From the IMG/VR virus record IMGVR_UViG_3300042868_003730, positions 32,001-96,000 of that record: 64,000 bases of DNA; one strand, 5' to 3'. Source of the stretch: a virus. Below are positions 34,245 to 38,869 of the stretch, piece by piece. Every line of letters begins with the position of its first letter. Position 1 is the stretch's first letter. Made by a program: the position numbers and the translations under genes. The notes below the pieces were generated by a model. That model did no database searches. It was not told the origin of the DNA and worked only from the letters and a program-made list of their open reading frames with translations.

Positions 34245-34275
34245 AAAAGAAAGGCAGCTTCGGCTGCCTTTTCTT
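34245..34275. terminator. bidirectional intrinsic terminator with UUCG loop
   Basis: AAAGGCAGC-TTCG-GCTGCCTTT between convergent genes. Confidence 0.9.
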
Positions 34276-36053
34276 CATCCAACCAAATAACGAGATAGTC
34301 TGTTATTGTATGAGACTTCTGGATTCCTGATCGGAGTTTTTACTGACCCAGAAGATCCTTTATTGTTATTGATAATAGTCGTCGGAGAATTATTCAAAAG
34401 AGTCGGAGCAGCTGGCTCTTCTTTCTTATTATTCATCGTCTGGAGATCGTCAGTACTCGCTGCTAATGCACCAGTCTGCGAAACTCTATTTGGCATCGAT
34501 GGTTTCTCAGCATCAGGACCAGCACCAAACAATGAAGCAATTCCCTTTGATGCAGTATCCTTACCAAGTAATCCGAAGGTAAGCCCAGAAGCCGCACTAC
34601 CAGCAGCGGAGGATAGTTTCTCACCAAGAGTTGCATCTCTGCCCTCGATGCCTAGATTTTCACCTGCCTCATTAAAGCCAGAGTATGCATCATAAGCAGC
34701 CATACCTGCCATTGCAAGTGGACCTGCCTTTCCAAGAGCACCCTTTAGGAATCCACCTGCTTTACCAAGACCACCAAGTGCTTTACTTGCCATTCCTGGT
34801 GCCTTCGCAGCACCACCAGCTATAGCCTTACCTGCGCCGAGGACTGGTGCAGCCAGTTTCGCTGCACCACCAAGTAATTTCCCACCAATTCCTGATAAGG
34901 CACCCATCAGCATTCCAGGAAGTCCTTTGAGCAAACTTCCGAAATTACCGAACATATCCATGATGGACTTCAACCATCCACCACCTTCTGCTTCTTTCTT
35001 CTTATCTTCTTTCGGGTCTTGAATCGAAGTAAGCATATTGTCTTTATTCTTAGACTCTAACTTATCTTCTTCTGAAGCAGTGCTTGCTCGAACGAGAGCA
35101 ACCAATTGATCAAGTTGTTTCTCATTAATCTCTGTCAGACTTCCAAGTGCACCTTCAAATACACCCTTTAGGTATTCTGGATCAGCTGTGTTTAATGCTT
35201 TCTTTTCTTCAGGCGATAGAACAGAGATCTCTGACTTAACACCCTCTGCAACTCCAGCAAGAAGATCCTCTGTTTTCTTGCTACCCATTGGCTTCTCGCC
35301 AGCTGAGAAATCAGTTGCTTCTTTCTTGAGATTCTGAGCAGAAACCAGTCTGGCGGTGTCTTCTTCTGAGAGACTACCACCGAATGACTTGGCTTCTTTC
35401 TGCTTTGCTTCTAACTCAGCGATTATTGGATCAGCCTTGGCGATATCTTTATATCTGCGTTCACCTTCAGCTGTAACTCTTTTCATCCCATCCGCATCAC
35501 CTGGTTTACCTCGTAGCTCTCTTCCCTTTTCAGTGAACTCACCGAAGTTAGCAATAAACTCAGCCTTCTTTGCTTTCTTTTCTTTTCTCTGAAGTATAGA
35601 ACCTAGAACAGCACCCTTCAGTGAACCATCATCTCGACCAATACCAGCCATTCCAGCCACACCCTCTAGGCTAAAAGCCTTCTTTACACTGGCAACTTTT
35701 CCTTGAACATATCCAGCAAGACCCTTCTTCTTTTCTTCCTGCTGCCTTTTGTAACCAAACTGCATTGTCTTGGTCAATTCAGAAACTGCTTTGAGTAGTT
35801 TCTTATCTACATCGATAGCATCCTGCTGGACGTCATTCGATTCTTCCATAAGTTTCGCAGAAGCGGAACTATTATCTCTCTCAACTGATGCTTTCGCGGA
35901 AGATGTTGACGACTGTACTGGCTGAGTAACTTCTGGTTGTTGAATAACTTCAGGTGCGGCTTGTTCCTCGGCATTTCTATTATAATTTGCCTGCACTACG
36001 CGCTGACTAAGTTTCATCTTAGTCGCTTTCGTTTTTTGTCTTACCTTAGCCAT
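34275..36053 (-). CDS. tail tape measure / baseplate hub length determinant (gp29-like)
   Basis: Helical Ala/Gly/Lys-rich, 592 aa, follows gp26/gp51, C-terminal NNSPTTIINN...PIRN. Confidence 0.6.
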   Translation of the reverse strand: MAKVRQKTKATKMKLSQRVVQANYNRNAEEQAAPEVIQQPEVTQPVQSSTSSAKASVERDNSSASAKLMEESNDVQQDAIDVDKKLLKAVSELTKTMQFGYKRQQEEKKKGLAGYVQGKVASVKKAFSLEGVAGMAGIGRDDGSLKGAVLGSILQRKEKKAKKAEFIANFGEFTEKGRELRGKPGDADGMKRVTAEGERRYKDIAKADPIIAELEAKQKEAKSFGGSLSEEDTARLVSAQNLKKEATDFSAGEKPMGSKKTEDLLAGVAEGVKSEISVLSPEEKKALNTADPEYLKGVFEGALGSLTEINEKQLDQLVALVRASTASEEDKLESKNKDNMLTSIQDPKEDKKKEAEGGGWLKSIMDMFGNFGSLLKGLPGMLMGALSGIGGKLLGGAAKLAAPVLGAGKAIAGGAAKAPGMASKALGGLGKAGGFLKGALGKAGPLAMAGMAAYDAYSGFNEAGENLGIEGRDATLGEKLSSAAGSAASGLTFGLLGKDTASKGIASLFGAGPDAEKPSMPNRVSQTGALAASTDDLQTMNNKKEEPAAPTLLNNSPTTIINNNKGSSGSVKTPIRNPEVSYNNRLSRYLVG

Positions 36054-36056
36054 ATG

Positions 36057-36236
36057 TTACCCTTGTTGTTTCTGAGACTTTTGTTTTTCTATTAGCGTGT
36101 TAAGCATCTGAATATAAATCTCTCGCTCATAAGGAAGCATATTGTCAATTTCAGTTAGTGAGTATTTGTGTATTTGCACTAACTGAAAGTTTGTGTCATA
36201 ATGATTGAATAGCGTCTCGTGGGAGAGATTTATTAA
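36057..36236 (-). CDS. 51: gp51-like baseplate hub assembly segment, in the -1 frame of gp26
   Basis: SHETLFNHYDTNFQLVQIHKYSLTEIDNMLPYEREIY; missed by the track; no canonical start ahead of the conserved part. Confidence 0.8.
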   Translation of the reverse strand, partial: LINLSHETLFNHYDTNFQLVQIHKYSLTEIDNMLPYEREIYIQMLNTLIEKQKSQKQQG

Positions 36237-36943
36237 AAAAAATTGTTCAGACCCTTTACGTGTTTATTATGTTCTACTTTACAAACTGGACAGGTATACT
36301 TTACTGCAATCCTAACAAGTGGCATTGTCTCGAAGAAATCCTCGAGCATCTTGTTCTGTTTGCTAGTCAAACTATCCATGAATGCTTTTAGTTCAGATTC
36401 AGTTTCTTCAGCAACATGGTATACGTCATCTTCGACATAAATAGTTTCCATCGCTGCCAAGACTGCTTTCTGCTTAGCATCTTCCTCAGTTGAATTCTGA
36501 ATCTCAATCAATTCATCCATTGTCGGATATTTCATCAGAACAGTGATTGTATCAGATAGTTTGACCTTATTGCTATGCTCTTCAGGAGTAAACACTTCAA
36601 CTGTTCGTAAGTCAATCTGGATCTTTGCTTTGGCTTCTGGATCCTCACAGGTATCACAGCGGAATACTAACTCGCTGAACTCACCAACGGACTTTGATCG
36701 AATAAAGGTAAACAGATACTCAAGATCGAAACTCGTCATATTCTCAACAAGTTCAGATGGCTCGATACAGTTCTCAACTACTTGTTTCAAAGTAGTCAAC
36801 ATCACTGCTAGGTCTTCTGACTCTTGAGCAGCTAACAGAGCACGTTCTTCTTTTACTCGGAATGGACGATACTTTGCTTTCTTCTTTGTTGATGGAATAG
36901 TAATCGGGTATAGTGGGGTTGGGTTAACTTCAGATAATCTCAT
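36233..36943 (-). CDS. 26: baseplate hub assembly protein gp26-like
   Basis: YRPFRVKEER, FDLEYLF..IRSKSVGE, MKYPT, CPVC, GLNNFF. Confidence 0.88.
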   Translation of the reverse strand: MRLSEVNPTPLYPITIPSTKKKAKYRPFRVKEERALLAAQESEDLAVMLTTLKQVVENCIEPSELVENMTSFDLEYLFTFIRSKSVGEFSELVFRCDTCEDPEAKAKIQIDLRTVEVFTPEEHSNKVKLSDTITVLMKYPTMDELIEIQNSTEEDAKQKAVLAAMETIYVEDDVYHVAEETESELKAFMDSLTSKQNKMLEDFFETMPLVRIAVKYTCPVCKVEHNKHVKGLNNFF

Positions 36944-37350
36944 AGTTTTTTCATCTTCTCCATAATTATTGCATTCATTTCAGAGGTAGTACCAATGAAG
37001 GCTACATTATTAGTTACATTAGCAGTCGGTATATTCTTCTCAGTTGACTTCTCAAGAATCTTTCTTTTCTTCTCATGCACGTCCAGCAATTGAGAATTCA
37101 TATCAGATACTGTCTTCAGCATTGTTGCTAGTACTTCATATGACCTTGGTGTTTCGCTTTGAATGGCAATTTCTAGCGCACTCTCAATGGCTCTGTTACC
37201 GAGGTTGAGAAGTCCTTTGATGTTTGTTCTTGCCAGTTCTGCGTCTGTTGAAACAGTTGAGTCTTTATCATCTTCGGAGATTGTGGGAAGTATAACCCGA
37301 TCCATCGGAACTGGTTCTACATCAAATACCTCGGAAATCTTTTTACTCAT
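36940..37350 (-). CDS. 16: terminase small subunit gp16-like
   Basis: D..LAR.NI, A..SETPRSYEV, TNNVAFIGTTSE. Confidence 0.75.
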   Translation of the reverse strand: MSKKISEVFDVEPVPMDRVILPTISEDDKDSTVSTDAELARTNIKGLLNLGNRAIESALEIAIQSETPRSYEVLATMLKTVSDMNSQLLDVHEKKRKILEKSTEKNIPTANVTNNVAFIGTTSEMNAIIMEKMKKL

Positions 37351-37631
37351 TGTTCTTTAGAAACTGCGTCAGATGCGTTATTTATTCTCGCAATTTTCTC
37401 TTGACCGCGAGTAAATGCCGAGACGCCAAGAATCGCTCCGAATGAGATATGGAATAATCCAGACCCAACCAGAGTTAATGGTTGCCACTGAGAATTGACA
37501 TTACCATTATAAAATGTCTGGATAATTGACCAGAGAATTGGCGCAACAACAAAATCAAATAAACAAATAACCAAATACACAATGGCAGTAATTGGTCGCC
37601 ATTTATTTTGCAACCAAGTTTCTGGTGTCAT
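37347..37631 (-). CDS. putative holin (GTA/3TM-type)
   Basis: KWRP..AIVYLVICLFDF, WQPLTL..GLFH..GAILG.SA.TRGQEK. Confidence 0.7.
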   Translation of the reverse strand: MTPETWLQNKWRPITAIVYLVICLFDFVVAPILWSIIQTFYNGNVNSQWQPLTLVGSGLFHISFGAILGVSAFTRGQEKIARINNASDAVSKEQ

Positions 37632-38869
37632 TAGTATTTTCCTCTGGTAACATCGGATTGAAGTTGTGATGCTGCACCGGAAACATCATTACCTCTGGTG
37701 TTATATACACTACCCATTTTACCAACAGAATCAGCGATCTGTTGGCTTCCACCAGGAATACTGTTCATTGAATTGGTCAGACTAGAGAAGATTGATCCAA
37801 CTCCTGATAAGTTCGCACCAATAGCACCAAGATGACCAGGAATACCTGCGACATTTGACACAACAGCAAGTTTGCCACCAATTCCCAATAGATTGGTTTG
37901 TATACCTGCGAATGGTGCCCCAAGTCCCAGAGAACTTGCTGCTGAGTTAATAGCACCAAGTGTATTTGCGATACCGACCGTAGCATTAGTGAGTGCAGCT
38001 AATGGTGCGGTGATGTTGTTGATTCCTTCTCCAAGCCCACCAAGAGCAGCACCAAAATCACTGGAACTCTTTCCAAGAGAAAGAATACCACTACCGAAAG
38101 CAGAAGTATTTGCATTTCCTCCAGGTGCTGTGCTTAACAAAGCATAGGAAGCAGAACAACTTCTTGATGTGTCGGATGCGAAATCTCTGCCGAGGGCAAC
38201 TGCACCACCAGAAAAGTTATTCGAGAATCCTGAACCACTACCAGCTGTTGCGTAGCCGAGATATTCAGCAGAACCATCTTTTGCCAATGCTGCCACACCA
38301 CTCTCTGATTTTTTAGTCGTGAACAGTTCTAGTTTATTGCTAATTTCATTCCCTGCTTCATCCATGGGAATTTGAGTCCAGTATTTGAATACCAGAGATA
38401 CGCGCACTCTGATGATATCTTTATTCTCGAAACCGAAACTAATATCCTGTATTGATTTCGGATATGCCTCAAAGACTCTGGCACAATAAACTATTTTACT
38501 TTCTTTATCAGTTACGATGACATCTAATTGTTTAGTGTAATCTGAATAATATCCTACATTTCTTGTTGTTTTATTTACAACTGCGTTAGACCATTGTTCG
38601 AAGTATTGTTTAACTATCATCTTCCTGTCAGATATAAATGATAGTTCCATACTTGGATATAATGGCATATACGGTACTTCTCTATTTTCACCGAATATTC
38701 TAATATCTGTTGTTGAGTTTGTTAACCCAGGAAGGTTAACGCTGTCGCACATTAAACTAACTTCTTTACCAGTGGAGTCACCAAACACCACATAGTAGTG
38801 CGTTCCTGTGAGCAGTCCTTCAGATTTTACCTTAGAGATAAACTCATTTAATGTTGCCTTTGAATCCAT
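37631..38869 (-). CDS. 54: baseplate-tail tube initiator gp54-like with long C-terminal extension
   Basis: CDSVNLPG, YFEQW, YYSDY, EAYPKSI tube-fold motifs. Confidence 0.7.
   Translation of the reverse strand: MDSKATLNEFISKVKSEGLLTGTHYYVVFGDSTGKEVSLMCDSVNLPGLTNSTTDIRIFGENREVPYMPLYPSMELSFISDRKMIVKQYFEQWSNAVVNKTTRNVGYYSDYTKQLDVIVTDKESKIVYCARVFEAYPKSIQDISFGFENKDIIRVRVSLVFKYWTQIPMDEAGNEISNKLELFTTKKSESGVAALAKDGSAEYLGYATAGSGSGFSNNFSGGAVALGRDFASDTSRSCSASYALLSTAPGGNANTSAFGSGILSLGKSSSDFGAALGGLGEGINNITAPLAALTNATVGIANTLGAINSAASSLGLGAPFAGIQTNLLGIGGKLAVVSNVAGIPGHLGAIGANLSGVGSIFSSLTNSMNSIPGGSQQIADSVGKMGSVYNTRGNDVSGAASQLQSDVTRGKY

What the first reader, a model, noticed from the sequence alone, without database searches (positions are those of the whole stretch)
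36057..36260. Probable programmed -1 frameshift fusing gp26 to gp51 upstream of the tape measure gene
Seen (minus strand): gp26 ends AAC AAT TTT TTT TAA, an 8-T run at 36242-36235 that forms a T TTT TTT slippery heptamer. The -1 frame continues for 59 codons (LINLSHETLFNHYDTNFQLVQIHKYSLTEIDNMLPYEREIY...QQG*) and is gp51-like. That frame is closed by TAA TAA about 9 codons upstream and has no ATG/GTG/TTG until V20 or M33. An SD-like AAGGG lies shortly 5' of the slip site. The next gene is the tape-measure candidate. Established: lambda G/GT-type tail chaperones use a -1 shift just before the tape measure gene. Inference: gp26 and a gp26-51 fusion (about 295 aa) are the equivalent pair in this T4-like lineage, where the genes are normally annotated separately.
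Basis: partly seen in the sequence, partly recalled or inferred. Interest (0 to 1): 0.8.

Follow-up and report, generated by a model that had tools for sequence, protein, structure and literature searches.

The report
Frameshifted tail chaperone gene (gp26/gp51)
This T4-like phage most likely makes a short and a long version of its tail-assembly chaperone from one gene by letting some ribosomes slip back one base on a run of T's; the signal is real and strongly conserved, but the same arrangement appears to have been published for T4-like phages in 2022, so this is a correct call of a known kind.

Summary
On the minus strand the gp26-like gene (36943..36233, 236 aa, PF12322) ends AAT TTT TTT TAA TAA. 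The -1 frame then runs 59 codons (36236..36060), with no start codon before codon 20.

- In 105 related loci the extension lies in the -1 frame in 103, and an in-phase T TTT TTY heptamer is present in 103.
- Synonymous sites are constrained: the preceding codon always ends in T, and the first Phe codon is TTT in every locus that has the heptamer.
- An SD-like GAGGG/AAGGG sits about 9-10 nt upstream.
- Four independent metagenome assemblies carry the identical 8-T run, which is the only T8/A8 run in the 64-kb window.
- T4 gp51 (249 aa) is a gp26 paralogue plus a C-terminal tail homologous to this extension, and it is co-linear with the predicted fusion with no gap at the junction.
- The complete 148-kb genome has only one PF12322 gene.
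- The gp26 N-domain model resembles the HK97 tail assembly chaperone (Z 7.2).

The kind is not new. Papers citing Vladimirov, Gautam and Davidson (Virology 2022) describe T4-like TAC-N/TAC-NC genes with poly-T -1 signals, and T4's two-gene solution. I could not read that paper itself. The tape-measure identity of the 592-aa downstream gene is only probable. The scan's first stage flagged this same stretch once before.

The parts
36233..36943 (-). TAC-N / gp26-like gene (236 aa plus TAA stop at 36235-36233). This is the short, presumably major product.
   Evidence: ORF list. Pfam PF12322 T4_baseplate 7.3e-53. phrog_150 2.5e-56. AF2 model pLDDT 89, pTM 0.81. N-terminal ~90 aa resemble the HK97 tail assembly chaperone 2OB9, Z 7.2.
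36252..36257 (-). Internal Shine-Dalgarno-like AAAGGG, 9 nt upstream of the heptamer. Putative frameshift stimulator.
   Evidence: Sequence. Across 103 loci the mean anti-SD duplex energy is about -7 kcal/mol at -17..-15 from the heptamer, versus a -0.08 background. Synonymous bias: GAG 80% vs 28%, GGR 70% vs 42%.
36236..36242 (-). Slippery heptamer T TTT TTT (X XXY YYZ phase), part of the 8-T run 36235-36242.
   Evidence: In-phase T TTT TTY in 103 of 105 loci. Only T8/A8 run in the window.
36230..36235 (-). Tandem 0-frame stop codons TAA TAA directly after the heptamer. They terminate TAC-N and may slow A-site decoding.
   Evidence: The stop lies 0-2 codons after the heptamer in all 103 loci that have it.
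36057..36236 (-). -1 frame extension (59 codons, 36236..36060, plus TAA 36059-36057). This is the C-terminal tail of TAC-NC, usually annotated as a separate small 'gp51'.
   Evidence: phrog_634 8e-22 and phrog_150 positions 236-277 of 282. hhalign to the gp51 C-terminus: Prob 95.9%, E 5.8e-9. blastp to T4 gp51 204-248: 1e-5. No start codon before codon 20.
36057..36943 (-). Whole TAC-NC coding region (about 295 aa after a -1 shift at 36242-36236). Equivalent of T4 gp51.
   Evidence: gp26 maps to gp51 13-200 and the extension to gp51 206-252, co-linear. The gp51-type model has the same fold order plus a four-helix tail.
34275..36053 (-). 592-aa downstream gene, probable tape measure protein (client of the chaperone).
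   Evidence: Synteny in all relatives. Same size as T4 gp29 (590 aa). Gly/Ala-rich hydrophobic segment. One short motif shared with gp29, E 0.004. ESM neighbours include a PF25671 T4_Tape_measure cluster, score 0.89, a lead only. No HMM hit to gp29.

Best explanation
The gene at 36943..36233 (minus strand) encodes the tail assembly chaperone of this T4-like myophage. It is decoded in two ways.

Most ribosomes terminate at TAA (36235-36233) and make the 236-aa short form (gp26 / TAC-N).

A minority slip back one base on T TTT TTT (36242-36236). The two tRNA-Phe re-pair from UUU UUU to UUU UUU. The slip is probably promoted by pairing of the 16S rRNA 3' end with the AAAGGG 9 nt upstream, and by the slowly decoded stop codon that follows.

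Those ribosomes read 59 more codons in the -1 frame and produce a ~295-aa long form (TAC-NC), the equivalent of T4 gp51.

By analogy with lambda gpG/gpGT, both forms would bind the tape measure protein encoded by the next gene. The helical tail of the long form would recruit another tail or hub component to start assembly. Neither form would end up in the virion.

Shown here: the sequence signals, their conservation and phase, the homology of both parts to T4 gp26/gp51, and the TAC-like fold. Inferred: that slippage really occurs and at what rate, what the tail binds, and that the client is the 592-aa protein.
For: Slip site and phase. 103 of 105 related loci have the extension in the -1 frame, by HMM-based frame calling. 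103 of 105 have an in-phase T TTT TTY, with the stop 0-2 codons later.

Synonymous constraint. In 19 lineages at <50% identity, the codon before FF always ends in T (log10 P -4.2), and the first Phe codon is TTT in all 17 that carry the heptamer, against a 49% background (log10 P -5.5).

The extension is translated from upstream. Positions H6, L9, Y12, Y13, N16 and F17 are conserved, yet 38 of 101 loci, including the window, have no ATG before codon 15.

SD-like stimulator at dnaX-like spacing, with synonymous bias towards it.

Not an assembly artefact. L005-L008 have an identical T8, and L009 kept the heptamer after substitutions. It is the only T8/A8 run in the window, versus 7.75 expected.

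The long form exists as a normal gene in T4. gp51 is PF12322 (residues 1-201) plus a tail. hhalign places gp26 on gp51 13-200 (Prob 96.5%) and the extension on gp51 206-252 (Prob 95.9%).

The complete genome has a single PF12322 gene.

TAC fold: 2OB9 Z 7.2, 3KLU Z 6.8, 3FGX Z 8.0, versus 5 or less for unrelated chains.

Literature. gp26 and gp51 are both listed as hub assembly chaperones, and gp51 is absent from the particle (PMC3004832). Cyanophage gp51 lacks the first ~200 aa (PMC3037559). T4-like TAC-N genes carry poly-T -1 signals (PMC12846349, citing Vladimirov 2022).
Against: There is no protein or ribosome-profiling evidence for this phage or, as far as I could find, for any relative, and the efficiency is unknown.

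No conserved downstream RNA structure was found. RNAalifold gave nothing, and the window's own hairpin is only -3.0 kcal/mol, z -1.1.

About half of the relatives have Met at extension position 4, so a separately initiated small protein is possible there.

One phage (S-SCSM1) has the extension in the +1 frame with its own ATG. Two Ackermannviridae lack the heptamer. The tail may therefore work unfused in some lineages.

The codons forming the SD-like element also encode the conserved Glu/Lys-Gly, so part of that signal is protein constraint.

Sequences in the census are phylogenetically related, so the P values are upper-bound impressions, not exact.
Confidence: 0.85

Rival explanations
1. Transcriptional slippage. 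RNA polymerase stutters on the T8 run and adds one U to a fraction of the mRNAs. Normal translation of those transcripts then yields the same long protein.
For: The window has 8 consecutive T's, and homopolymer runs of about this length are known to cause RNA polymerase slippage (reviewed in PMC5009743). The protein product would be indistinguishable. The title of Vladimirov et al. [quoted passage not shown]
Against: 78 of 103 loci have only six T's followed by C, too short for efficient polymerase slippage, yet they keep the same architecture. The run is always in X XXY YYZ codon phase, and an SD-like element sits at a fixed ~10-nt distance. Both features matter to ribosomes, not to RNA polymerase.
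Confidence: 0.06
2. Two separate genes. The 59-codon frame, or part of it, is translated on its own as a small gp51 peptide by re-initiation or coupling after gp26 terminates, as current GenBank annotations imply.
For: Databases annotate a separate 'baseplate hub assembly catalyst' of 34-62 aa in most relatives. 51 of 101 loci have Met at extension position 4. S-SCSM1 has the extension in another frame with its own ATG. Vibrio phage YC has a TAATG overlap start and no heptamer.
Against: In the window the first start codon is GTG at codon 20, with no SD-like sequence before it. That would cut off the conserved H6, L9, Y13, N16 and F17. Free initiation explains neither the near-universal -1 phase and invariant heptamer nor the synonymous T's. 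T4 gp51 carries this segment only as the end of a full gp26-like protein.
Confidence: 0.06
3. Artefact or pseudogene. The true sequence has 7 or 9 T's and the gene is a single continuous ORF, or it is a decaying gene broken by a homopolymer indel.
For: Homopolymer length errors are common in some sequencing chemistries, and the window is a metagenome-derived record.
Against: Four independent assemblies share the same T8. The shifted arrangement is the rule in 103 of 105 loci, including cultured, finished phage genomes. The short form has its own conserved counterpart in T4, gp26, which ends at the same position. No in-frame fusion was found outside the T4-type gp51 paralogues.
Confidence: 0.02

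Closest known systems
T4 gp26 and gp51 (hub assembly chaperones; TAC-N and TAC-NC of T4-like phages per Vladimirov, Gautam & Davidson, Virology 2022)
   Same: Same protein family. The window's gp26 and both T4 proteins match PF12322 and phrog_150. The extension is homologous to the last ~45 residues of gp51. A short and a long form share an N-terminal domain. The predicted fold order is the same.
   Different: T4 encodes the two forms as two diverged, divergently transcribed paralogous genes (26 next to 25; 51 ahead of 27-28-29) and has no heptamer at the end of gene 26. The window has one gene plus a -1 shift and no second paralogue.
Lambda gpG/gpGT and the G/GT-type tail assembly chaperone frameshift (Levin, Hendrix & Casjens 1993; Xu, Hendrix & Duda 2004, as reviewed in PMC5009743)
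   Same: A -1 shift on a heptamer near the 3' end of a chaperone gene, directly upstream of the tape-measure gene. It gives a major short and a minor long product with a common N-terminus. The N-terminal ~90 aa resemble the HK97 TAC fold (Z 7.2).
   Different: There is no detectable sequence similarity. The protein is about 100 aa longer, with an extra zinc-ribbon-like Cys4 module. The heptamer is U-rich (T TTT TTY) rather than G GGA AAG. The stop codon abuts the slip site. The client TMP also acts as a baseplate hub protein in T4.
E. coli dnaX -1 frameshift (A AAA AAG with an internal SD about 10 nt upstream and a 3' hairpin) and B. subtilis cdd (SD plus an adjacent stop)
   Same: An internal SD-like element sits about 9-10 nt 5' of the heptamer. 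A stop codon flanks the shift site on its 3' side.
   Different: No conserved 3' stem-loop was found. The biological role differs. The comparison with these systems rests on my own knowledge and was not tested.

Membership tests
T4 gp26/gp51 family (Pfam PF12322 T4_baseplate; phrog_150) | Significant match to the family profile over its full length | tested here: met
   PF12322 7.3e-53, profile 3-218 of 219. phrog_150 2.5e-56.
T4 gp26/gp51 family (Pfam PF12322 T4_baseplate; phrog_150) | Long form carries the gp51-type C-terminal tail (PF28602 in newer Pfam; phrog_634) | tested here: met
   The extension hits phrog_634 at 8e-22. hhalign to gp51 206-252: Prob 95.9%. PF28602 itself could not be run, as it is absent from the local library.
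G/GT-type tail assembly chaperones with programmed -1 frameshift | [quoted passage not shown] | tested here: met
   T TTT TTT at 36242-36236, and 59 open codons. Conserved in 103 of 105 loci.
G/GT-type tail assembly chaperones with programmed -1 frameshift | Gene lies immediately upstream of the tape measure gene | tested here: inconclusive
   The 592-aa gene starts 3 nt after the extension stop. Its TMP identity is supported only by size, composition, synteny, an ESM neighbour (0.89) and a short gp29 motif. There is no HMM hit.
G/GT-type tail assembly chaperones with programmed -1 frameshift | TAC fold of the shared N-terminal domain | tested here: inconclusive
   VIA-align gives 2OB9 (HK97 TAC) Z 7.2 with 79 aligned, 3KLU Z 6.8, 3FGX Z 8.0, and unrelated chains at Z 5 or less. 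Foldseek gives prob 0.77 for 2OB9 but E 0.9. The Z values lie in the range the tool calls middling.
G/GT-type tail assembly chaperones with programmed -1 frameshift | Two products are really made, at a low long:short ratio, and neither is in the virion | not testable with these tools
   This needs proteomics or reporter assays. For T4, gp51 is reported absent from the particle (PMC3004832).
G/GT-type tail assembly chaperones with programmed -1 frameshift | Short and long forms bind the tape measure protein, and the tail binds a tube or hub protein | not testable with these tools
   This needs binding experiments.

The most novel reading that the evidence does not exclude
The single-gene frameshift is the ancestral state for the whole T4 superfamily (Kyanoviridae, Schizotequatrovirus, Emmerichvirinae, Pootjesviridae, Emdodecavirus, Menderavirus and RSP15-like phages). 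It works with a dnaX/cdd-like stimulator set, an internal SD about 10 nt upstream plus an abutting stop codon, and no obligatory 3' structure. T4's two genes 26 and 51 are a derived duplication that froze the two decoding outcomes into separate genes. Ackermannviridae and S-SCSM1 represent further independent escapes from frameshifting. If the 2022 paper did not already cover these points, they would be a modest new contribution, and hundreds of GenBank 'gp51' CDS would need re-annotation as joined features.
Probability: 0.4. Interest if true: 0.4.

Novelty: new member of a known kind. Interest (0 to 1): 0.3.

Why it matters
It answers, for this phage and for most of the T4 superfamily, the old remark that the G/GT tail-chaperone frameshift is conserved in long-tailed phages "except T4" (PMC5009743). 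It also explains why cyanophage and marine vibriophage "gp51" seem to lack their first ~200 residues (PMC3037559): those residues are supplied by gp26 through the shift.

In practice, the separate 34-62-aa "baseplate hub assembly catalyst" CDS in about 500 phage records are probably mis-annotated fragments of a joined gene. The idea itself appears to be published already (Vladimirov et al. 2022), so the value here is confirmation, a wider census and correct annotation of this genome.

Tried and rejected
Searches and steps that led nowhere:
- blastn ('distant') of the locus against the phage collection: no match.
- Search for longer proteins containing the 59-aa segment: nothing, but this tool has low sensitivity. 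The in-frame long form was found instead through PHROG and Pfam scans of T4 gp51.
- Conserved downstream RNA structure: RNAalifold gave an empty consensus for all 68 dereplicated junctions and for both subgroups. There is only a diffuse excess of local folding (mean z -1.6 vs -0.4), and I did not build a covariance model.
- T4 gp29 family (phrog_1283) in the whole genome: no hit even at E<=10. Pfam, PHROG and NCBIfam give no tape-measure hit for the 592-aa protein.
- PDB sequence search with gp26: nothing. Foldseek against PDB: nothing at E<=1e-3.
- PF28602 is not in the local Pfam copy.
- The key paper (doi 10.1016/j.virol.2021.11.003) is not held, so its content is known only through two citing papers.
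- I could not fold the window's own fusion product, because a -1 joined sequence cannot be handed to the folding tool. A natural T4-type gp51 was folded instead.

Rejected: assembly error (see rival explanations).

Full report
**What is there.** On the minus strand an ORF runs 36943..36233 (236 aa) and ends GGT CTG AAC AAT TTT TTT TAA TAA. It is a full-length member of Pfam PF12322 'T4_baseplate' (7.3e-53) and of phrog_150 'baseplate hub' (2.5e-56), so it is a T4 gp26 homologue. The T run is 36242-36235, and the heptamer T TTT TTT (36242-36236) is in X XXY YYZ phase.

The -1 frame is closed by TAA TAA nine codons upstream of the gp26 stop. It then stays open for 59 codons (36236..36060, stop 36059-36057). 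Its first possible start is GTG at codon 20, then ATG at codon 33. Three bases after its stop, a 592-aa ORF begins (36053..34275).

The 59-aa product hits phrog_634 'baseplate hub assembly catalyst' (8e-22). It also hits the last 40 positions of the gp26 family profile itself (phrog_150 236-277 of 282). The 8-T run is the only T8/A8 run in the whole 64-kb window on either strand, whereas shuffles give 7.75 +/- 3.6.

**Is it an artefact?** The window lies in a 147,921-bp virus record with direct terminal repeats, rated 100% complete. Four independent IMG/VR assemblies (L005-L008, about 95% protein identity) carry exactly the same T8-TAA junction. A 69%-identical relative (L009) reads T TTT TTC TAT TAA, so it changed the bases around the site but kept the heptamer and the phase. 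An assembly error is very unlikely.

**Comparative census.** tblastn with the 59-aa segment finds it in 496 phage records: cyanophages, Pelagibacter, Methylophilales, Sinorhizobium, Caulobacter and Pseudomonas phages. In most it straddles the annotated 'gp26' and a small 'gp51'.

I collected 105 loci. These comprise 24 annotated phage records, 86 IMG/VR contigs found with the protein and with an alignment, and the window itself, minus duplicates.
- With an HMM of the extension scanned in all three frames, the extension is in the -1 frame in 103 loci. It is +1 in one (Synechococcus phage S-SCSM1), and one locus is truncated.
- An in-phase T TTT TTY is present in 103 of 105, with the 0-frame stop 0, 1 or 2 codons later. 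The two exceptions are Ackermannviridae (Det7 and Vibrio phage YC).
- The architecture is found well outside Kyanoviridae: Schizotequatrovirus phi-ST2, Emmerichvirinae AS-sw, Agrobacterium OLIVR5, Sinorhizobium phiM7, Stenotrophomonas YB07 and Ralstonia RSP15.

**Evidence that the site is selected as a slip site.** The two Phe residues are invariant in the protein, so the informative positions are synonymous ones.
- After dereplication to 19 lineages at <50% identity, the codon before FF always ends in T (log10 P about -4.2 given background usage).
- In all 17 of those lineages that carry the heptamer, the first Phe codon is TTT, against 49% TTT in the rest of the gene (log10 P about -5.5).
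- These figures ignore residual relatedness and should be read as strong but not exact.

**Evidence that the extension is entered from gp26.** Extension positions H6, L9, Y12, Y13, N16, F17 and L19 are 83-97% conserved. Position 4, however, is Met in only 51 of 101 loci and Leu in 48, and 38 loci have no ATG before codon 15. In the window nothing can start translation before codon 20, and no SD-like sequence precedes that GTG. The conserved N-terminal third of the segment can therefore be made only by ribosomes arriving from gp26.

**Stimulators.** An SD-like element lies at a fixed distance. Mean anti-SD pairing energy is about -7 kcal/mol for 8-mers starting 15-17 nt before the heptamer, versus a -0.08 background and a 5th percentile of -4.6. 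In the window this element is AAAGGG (36257-36252), 9 nt upstream.

These bases encode the conserved Glu/Lys-Gly, but the synonymous choices lean towards the SD. GAG is used 80% of the time versus 28% elsewhere, and GGR 70% versus 42%. This spacing is the geometry I know from dnaX (own knowledge, not tested).

No positionally conserved downstream structure exists. RNAalifold returned nothing for all junctions or for subgroups. Many lineages have some hairpin (mean z -1.6 vs -0.4 in controls), but the window's own is weak at -3.0 kcal/mol, z -1.1. The abutting stop codon may contribute (inference).

**The T4 connection.** In T4, gene 26 (208 aa) is followed by gene 25. Gene 51 (249 aa) is divergently transcribed at the head of 51-27-28-29-48-54.
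- T4 gp51 matches the gp26 profile end to end (phrog_150 13-280 of 282, 2.6e-84; PF12322 over residues 1-201). T4 gp26 stops at profile position 235. The two are paralogues (blastp 2e-6).
- T4 gp51 204-248 aligns with the window's extension 4-53 (1e-5).
- Profile-profile comparison is co-linear. The window-type gp26 maps to gp51 13-200 (Prob 96.5%, E 9.5e-10), and the extension residues 6-53 map to gp51 206-252 (Prob 95.9%, E 5.8e-9). The predicted fusion therefore matches gp51 with no gap at the shift site.
- All 90-odd full-length gp51 homologues carry PF12322 plus PF28602.
- AF2 models of the window's gp26 (pLDDT 89) and of a T4-type gp51 (pLDDT 92) have the same order of secondary-structure elements. 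gp51 adds a four-helix tail at 196-249.
- The window's genome has only one PF12322 gene, so a gp51 equivalent can arise only by the shift.

This also explains the remark of Sullivan et al. 2010 that cyanophage and marine vibriophage gp51 lack the first ~200 residues (PMC3037559).

**What it works like.** Leiman et al. 2010 list gp26 and gp51 as hub assembly chaperones, with gp51 absent from the particle (PMC3004832).

The structural search of the gp26 model puts three proteins on top, all covering residues 1-95: 3FGX (Z 8.0), the HK97 tail assembly chaperone 2OB9 (Z 7.2, 79 residues) and the B. subtilis prophage protein YqbN, 3KLU (Z 6.8). Unrelated chains start at Z 5 or below. Foldseek alone was not significant. 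The Z values are in the tool's 'middling' range, so I treat the TAC fold as likely, not proven.

The downstream 592-aa protein is the size of T4 gp29 (590 aa) and has a Gly/Ala-rich hydrophobic segment. It shares one 19-residue motif with gp29 (E 0.004) and has a T4_Tape_measure cluster among its embedding neighbours (0.89, a lead only). The syntenic protein of phi-ST2 hits a TMP family at 1.7e-6. No HMM assigns it. I call it a probable tape measure.

**Prior art.** Atkins et al. 2016 wrote that the G-T frameshift is conserved among long-tailed phages 'except T4' (PMC5009743).

Vladimirov, Gautam and Davidson (Virology 2022; 566:9-15) then identified the TAC genes of T4-like phages. I could not obtain the paper. 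According to PMC10885494 it shows that some T4-like phages carry one short gene and one longer fusion gene instead of frameshifting. According to PMC12846349 it describes TAC-N/TAC-NC isoforms and poly-T -1 frameshift signals in TAC-N genes of T4-like phages.

My other literature searches found nothing further. The kind is therefore known, and the window is a new, unannotated member. The first stage of this scan had also flagged the same stretch in another reading.

**Verdict.** My confidence is about 0.85 for a programmed -1 ribosomal frameshift giving TAC-N (236 aa) and TAC-NC (~295 aa). The rest is split between transcriptional slippage, a separately initiated peptide, and artefact. Novelty is low and annotation value is real.

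Noticed in passing
L017 (Synechococcus phage S-SCSM1, NC_070962.1 161566-162469): The only locus of 105 where the gp51-like segment lies in the +1/-2 frame. The heptamer T TTT TTC is kept, but the -1 frame closes after six codons and the segment has its own ATG. This is either a real uncoupling into a separate small gene or an indel in the record.
   Followed up: partly
L101 (Salmonella phage Det7) and L102 (Vibrio phage YC): These Ackermannviridae keep the homologous segment in the -1 frame but lack the slippery heptamer (GAG ATT TTC ATT TAA; GCT TTC ATG TAA TG). YC has a TAATG stop-start overlap. This suggests that this family makes the tail as a separate peptide or uses a different shift site.
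   Followed up: partly
About 496 public phage records, e.g. L001 1579-1683, L003 (none annotated), L016 1552-1695: The small 'baseplate hub assembly catalyst / gp51' CDS are annotated with inconsistent starts (34 to 62 aa) or not at all. None of the rows I saw was flagged as a joined (ribosomal slippage) feature.
   Followed up: partly
window 37631-38869 (minus strand): A 412-aa protein whose first ~190 residues match tail-tube families (phrog_45 5.6e-27; weak gp19 Pfam). It is followed by a ~220-aa Gly/Ser/Ala-rich low-complexity C-terminal half, which is unusual for a tube-type protein.
   Followed up: no
window 36940-37631 (minus strand): A small-terminase gene (phrog_445 1e-28) and a 94-aa holin-like membrane protein (phrog_3427 3.3e-6) sit between the tube-like gene and the chaperone gene. 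This gene order is unlike T4's.
   Followed up: no
window, whole 64 kb: T8/A8 homopolymer runs are strongly depleted: 1 observed versus 7.75 +/- 3.6 expected from dinucleotide shuffles. This is consistent with selection against accidental slippage sites.
   Followed up: partly
L105 3803-4090 (T4 gene 26'): RefSeq annotates an internal in-frame product, gp26' (the C-terminal 95 aa of gp26). T4 therefore makes at least three proteins of this family. Whether the window's gene has an equivalent internal start was not examined.
   Followed up: no
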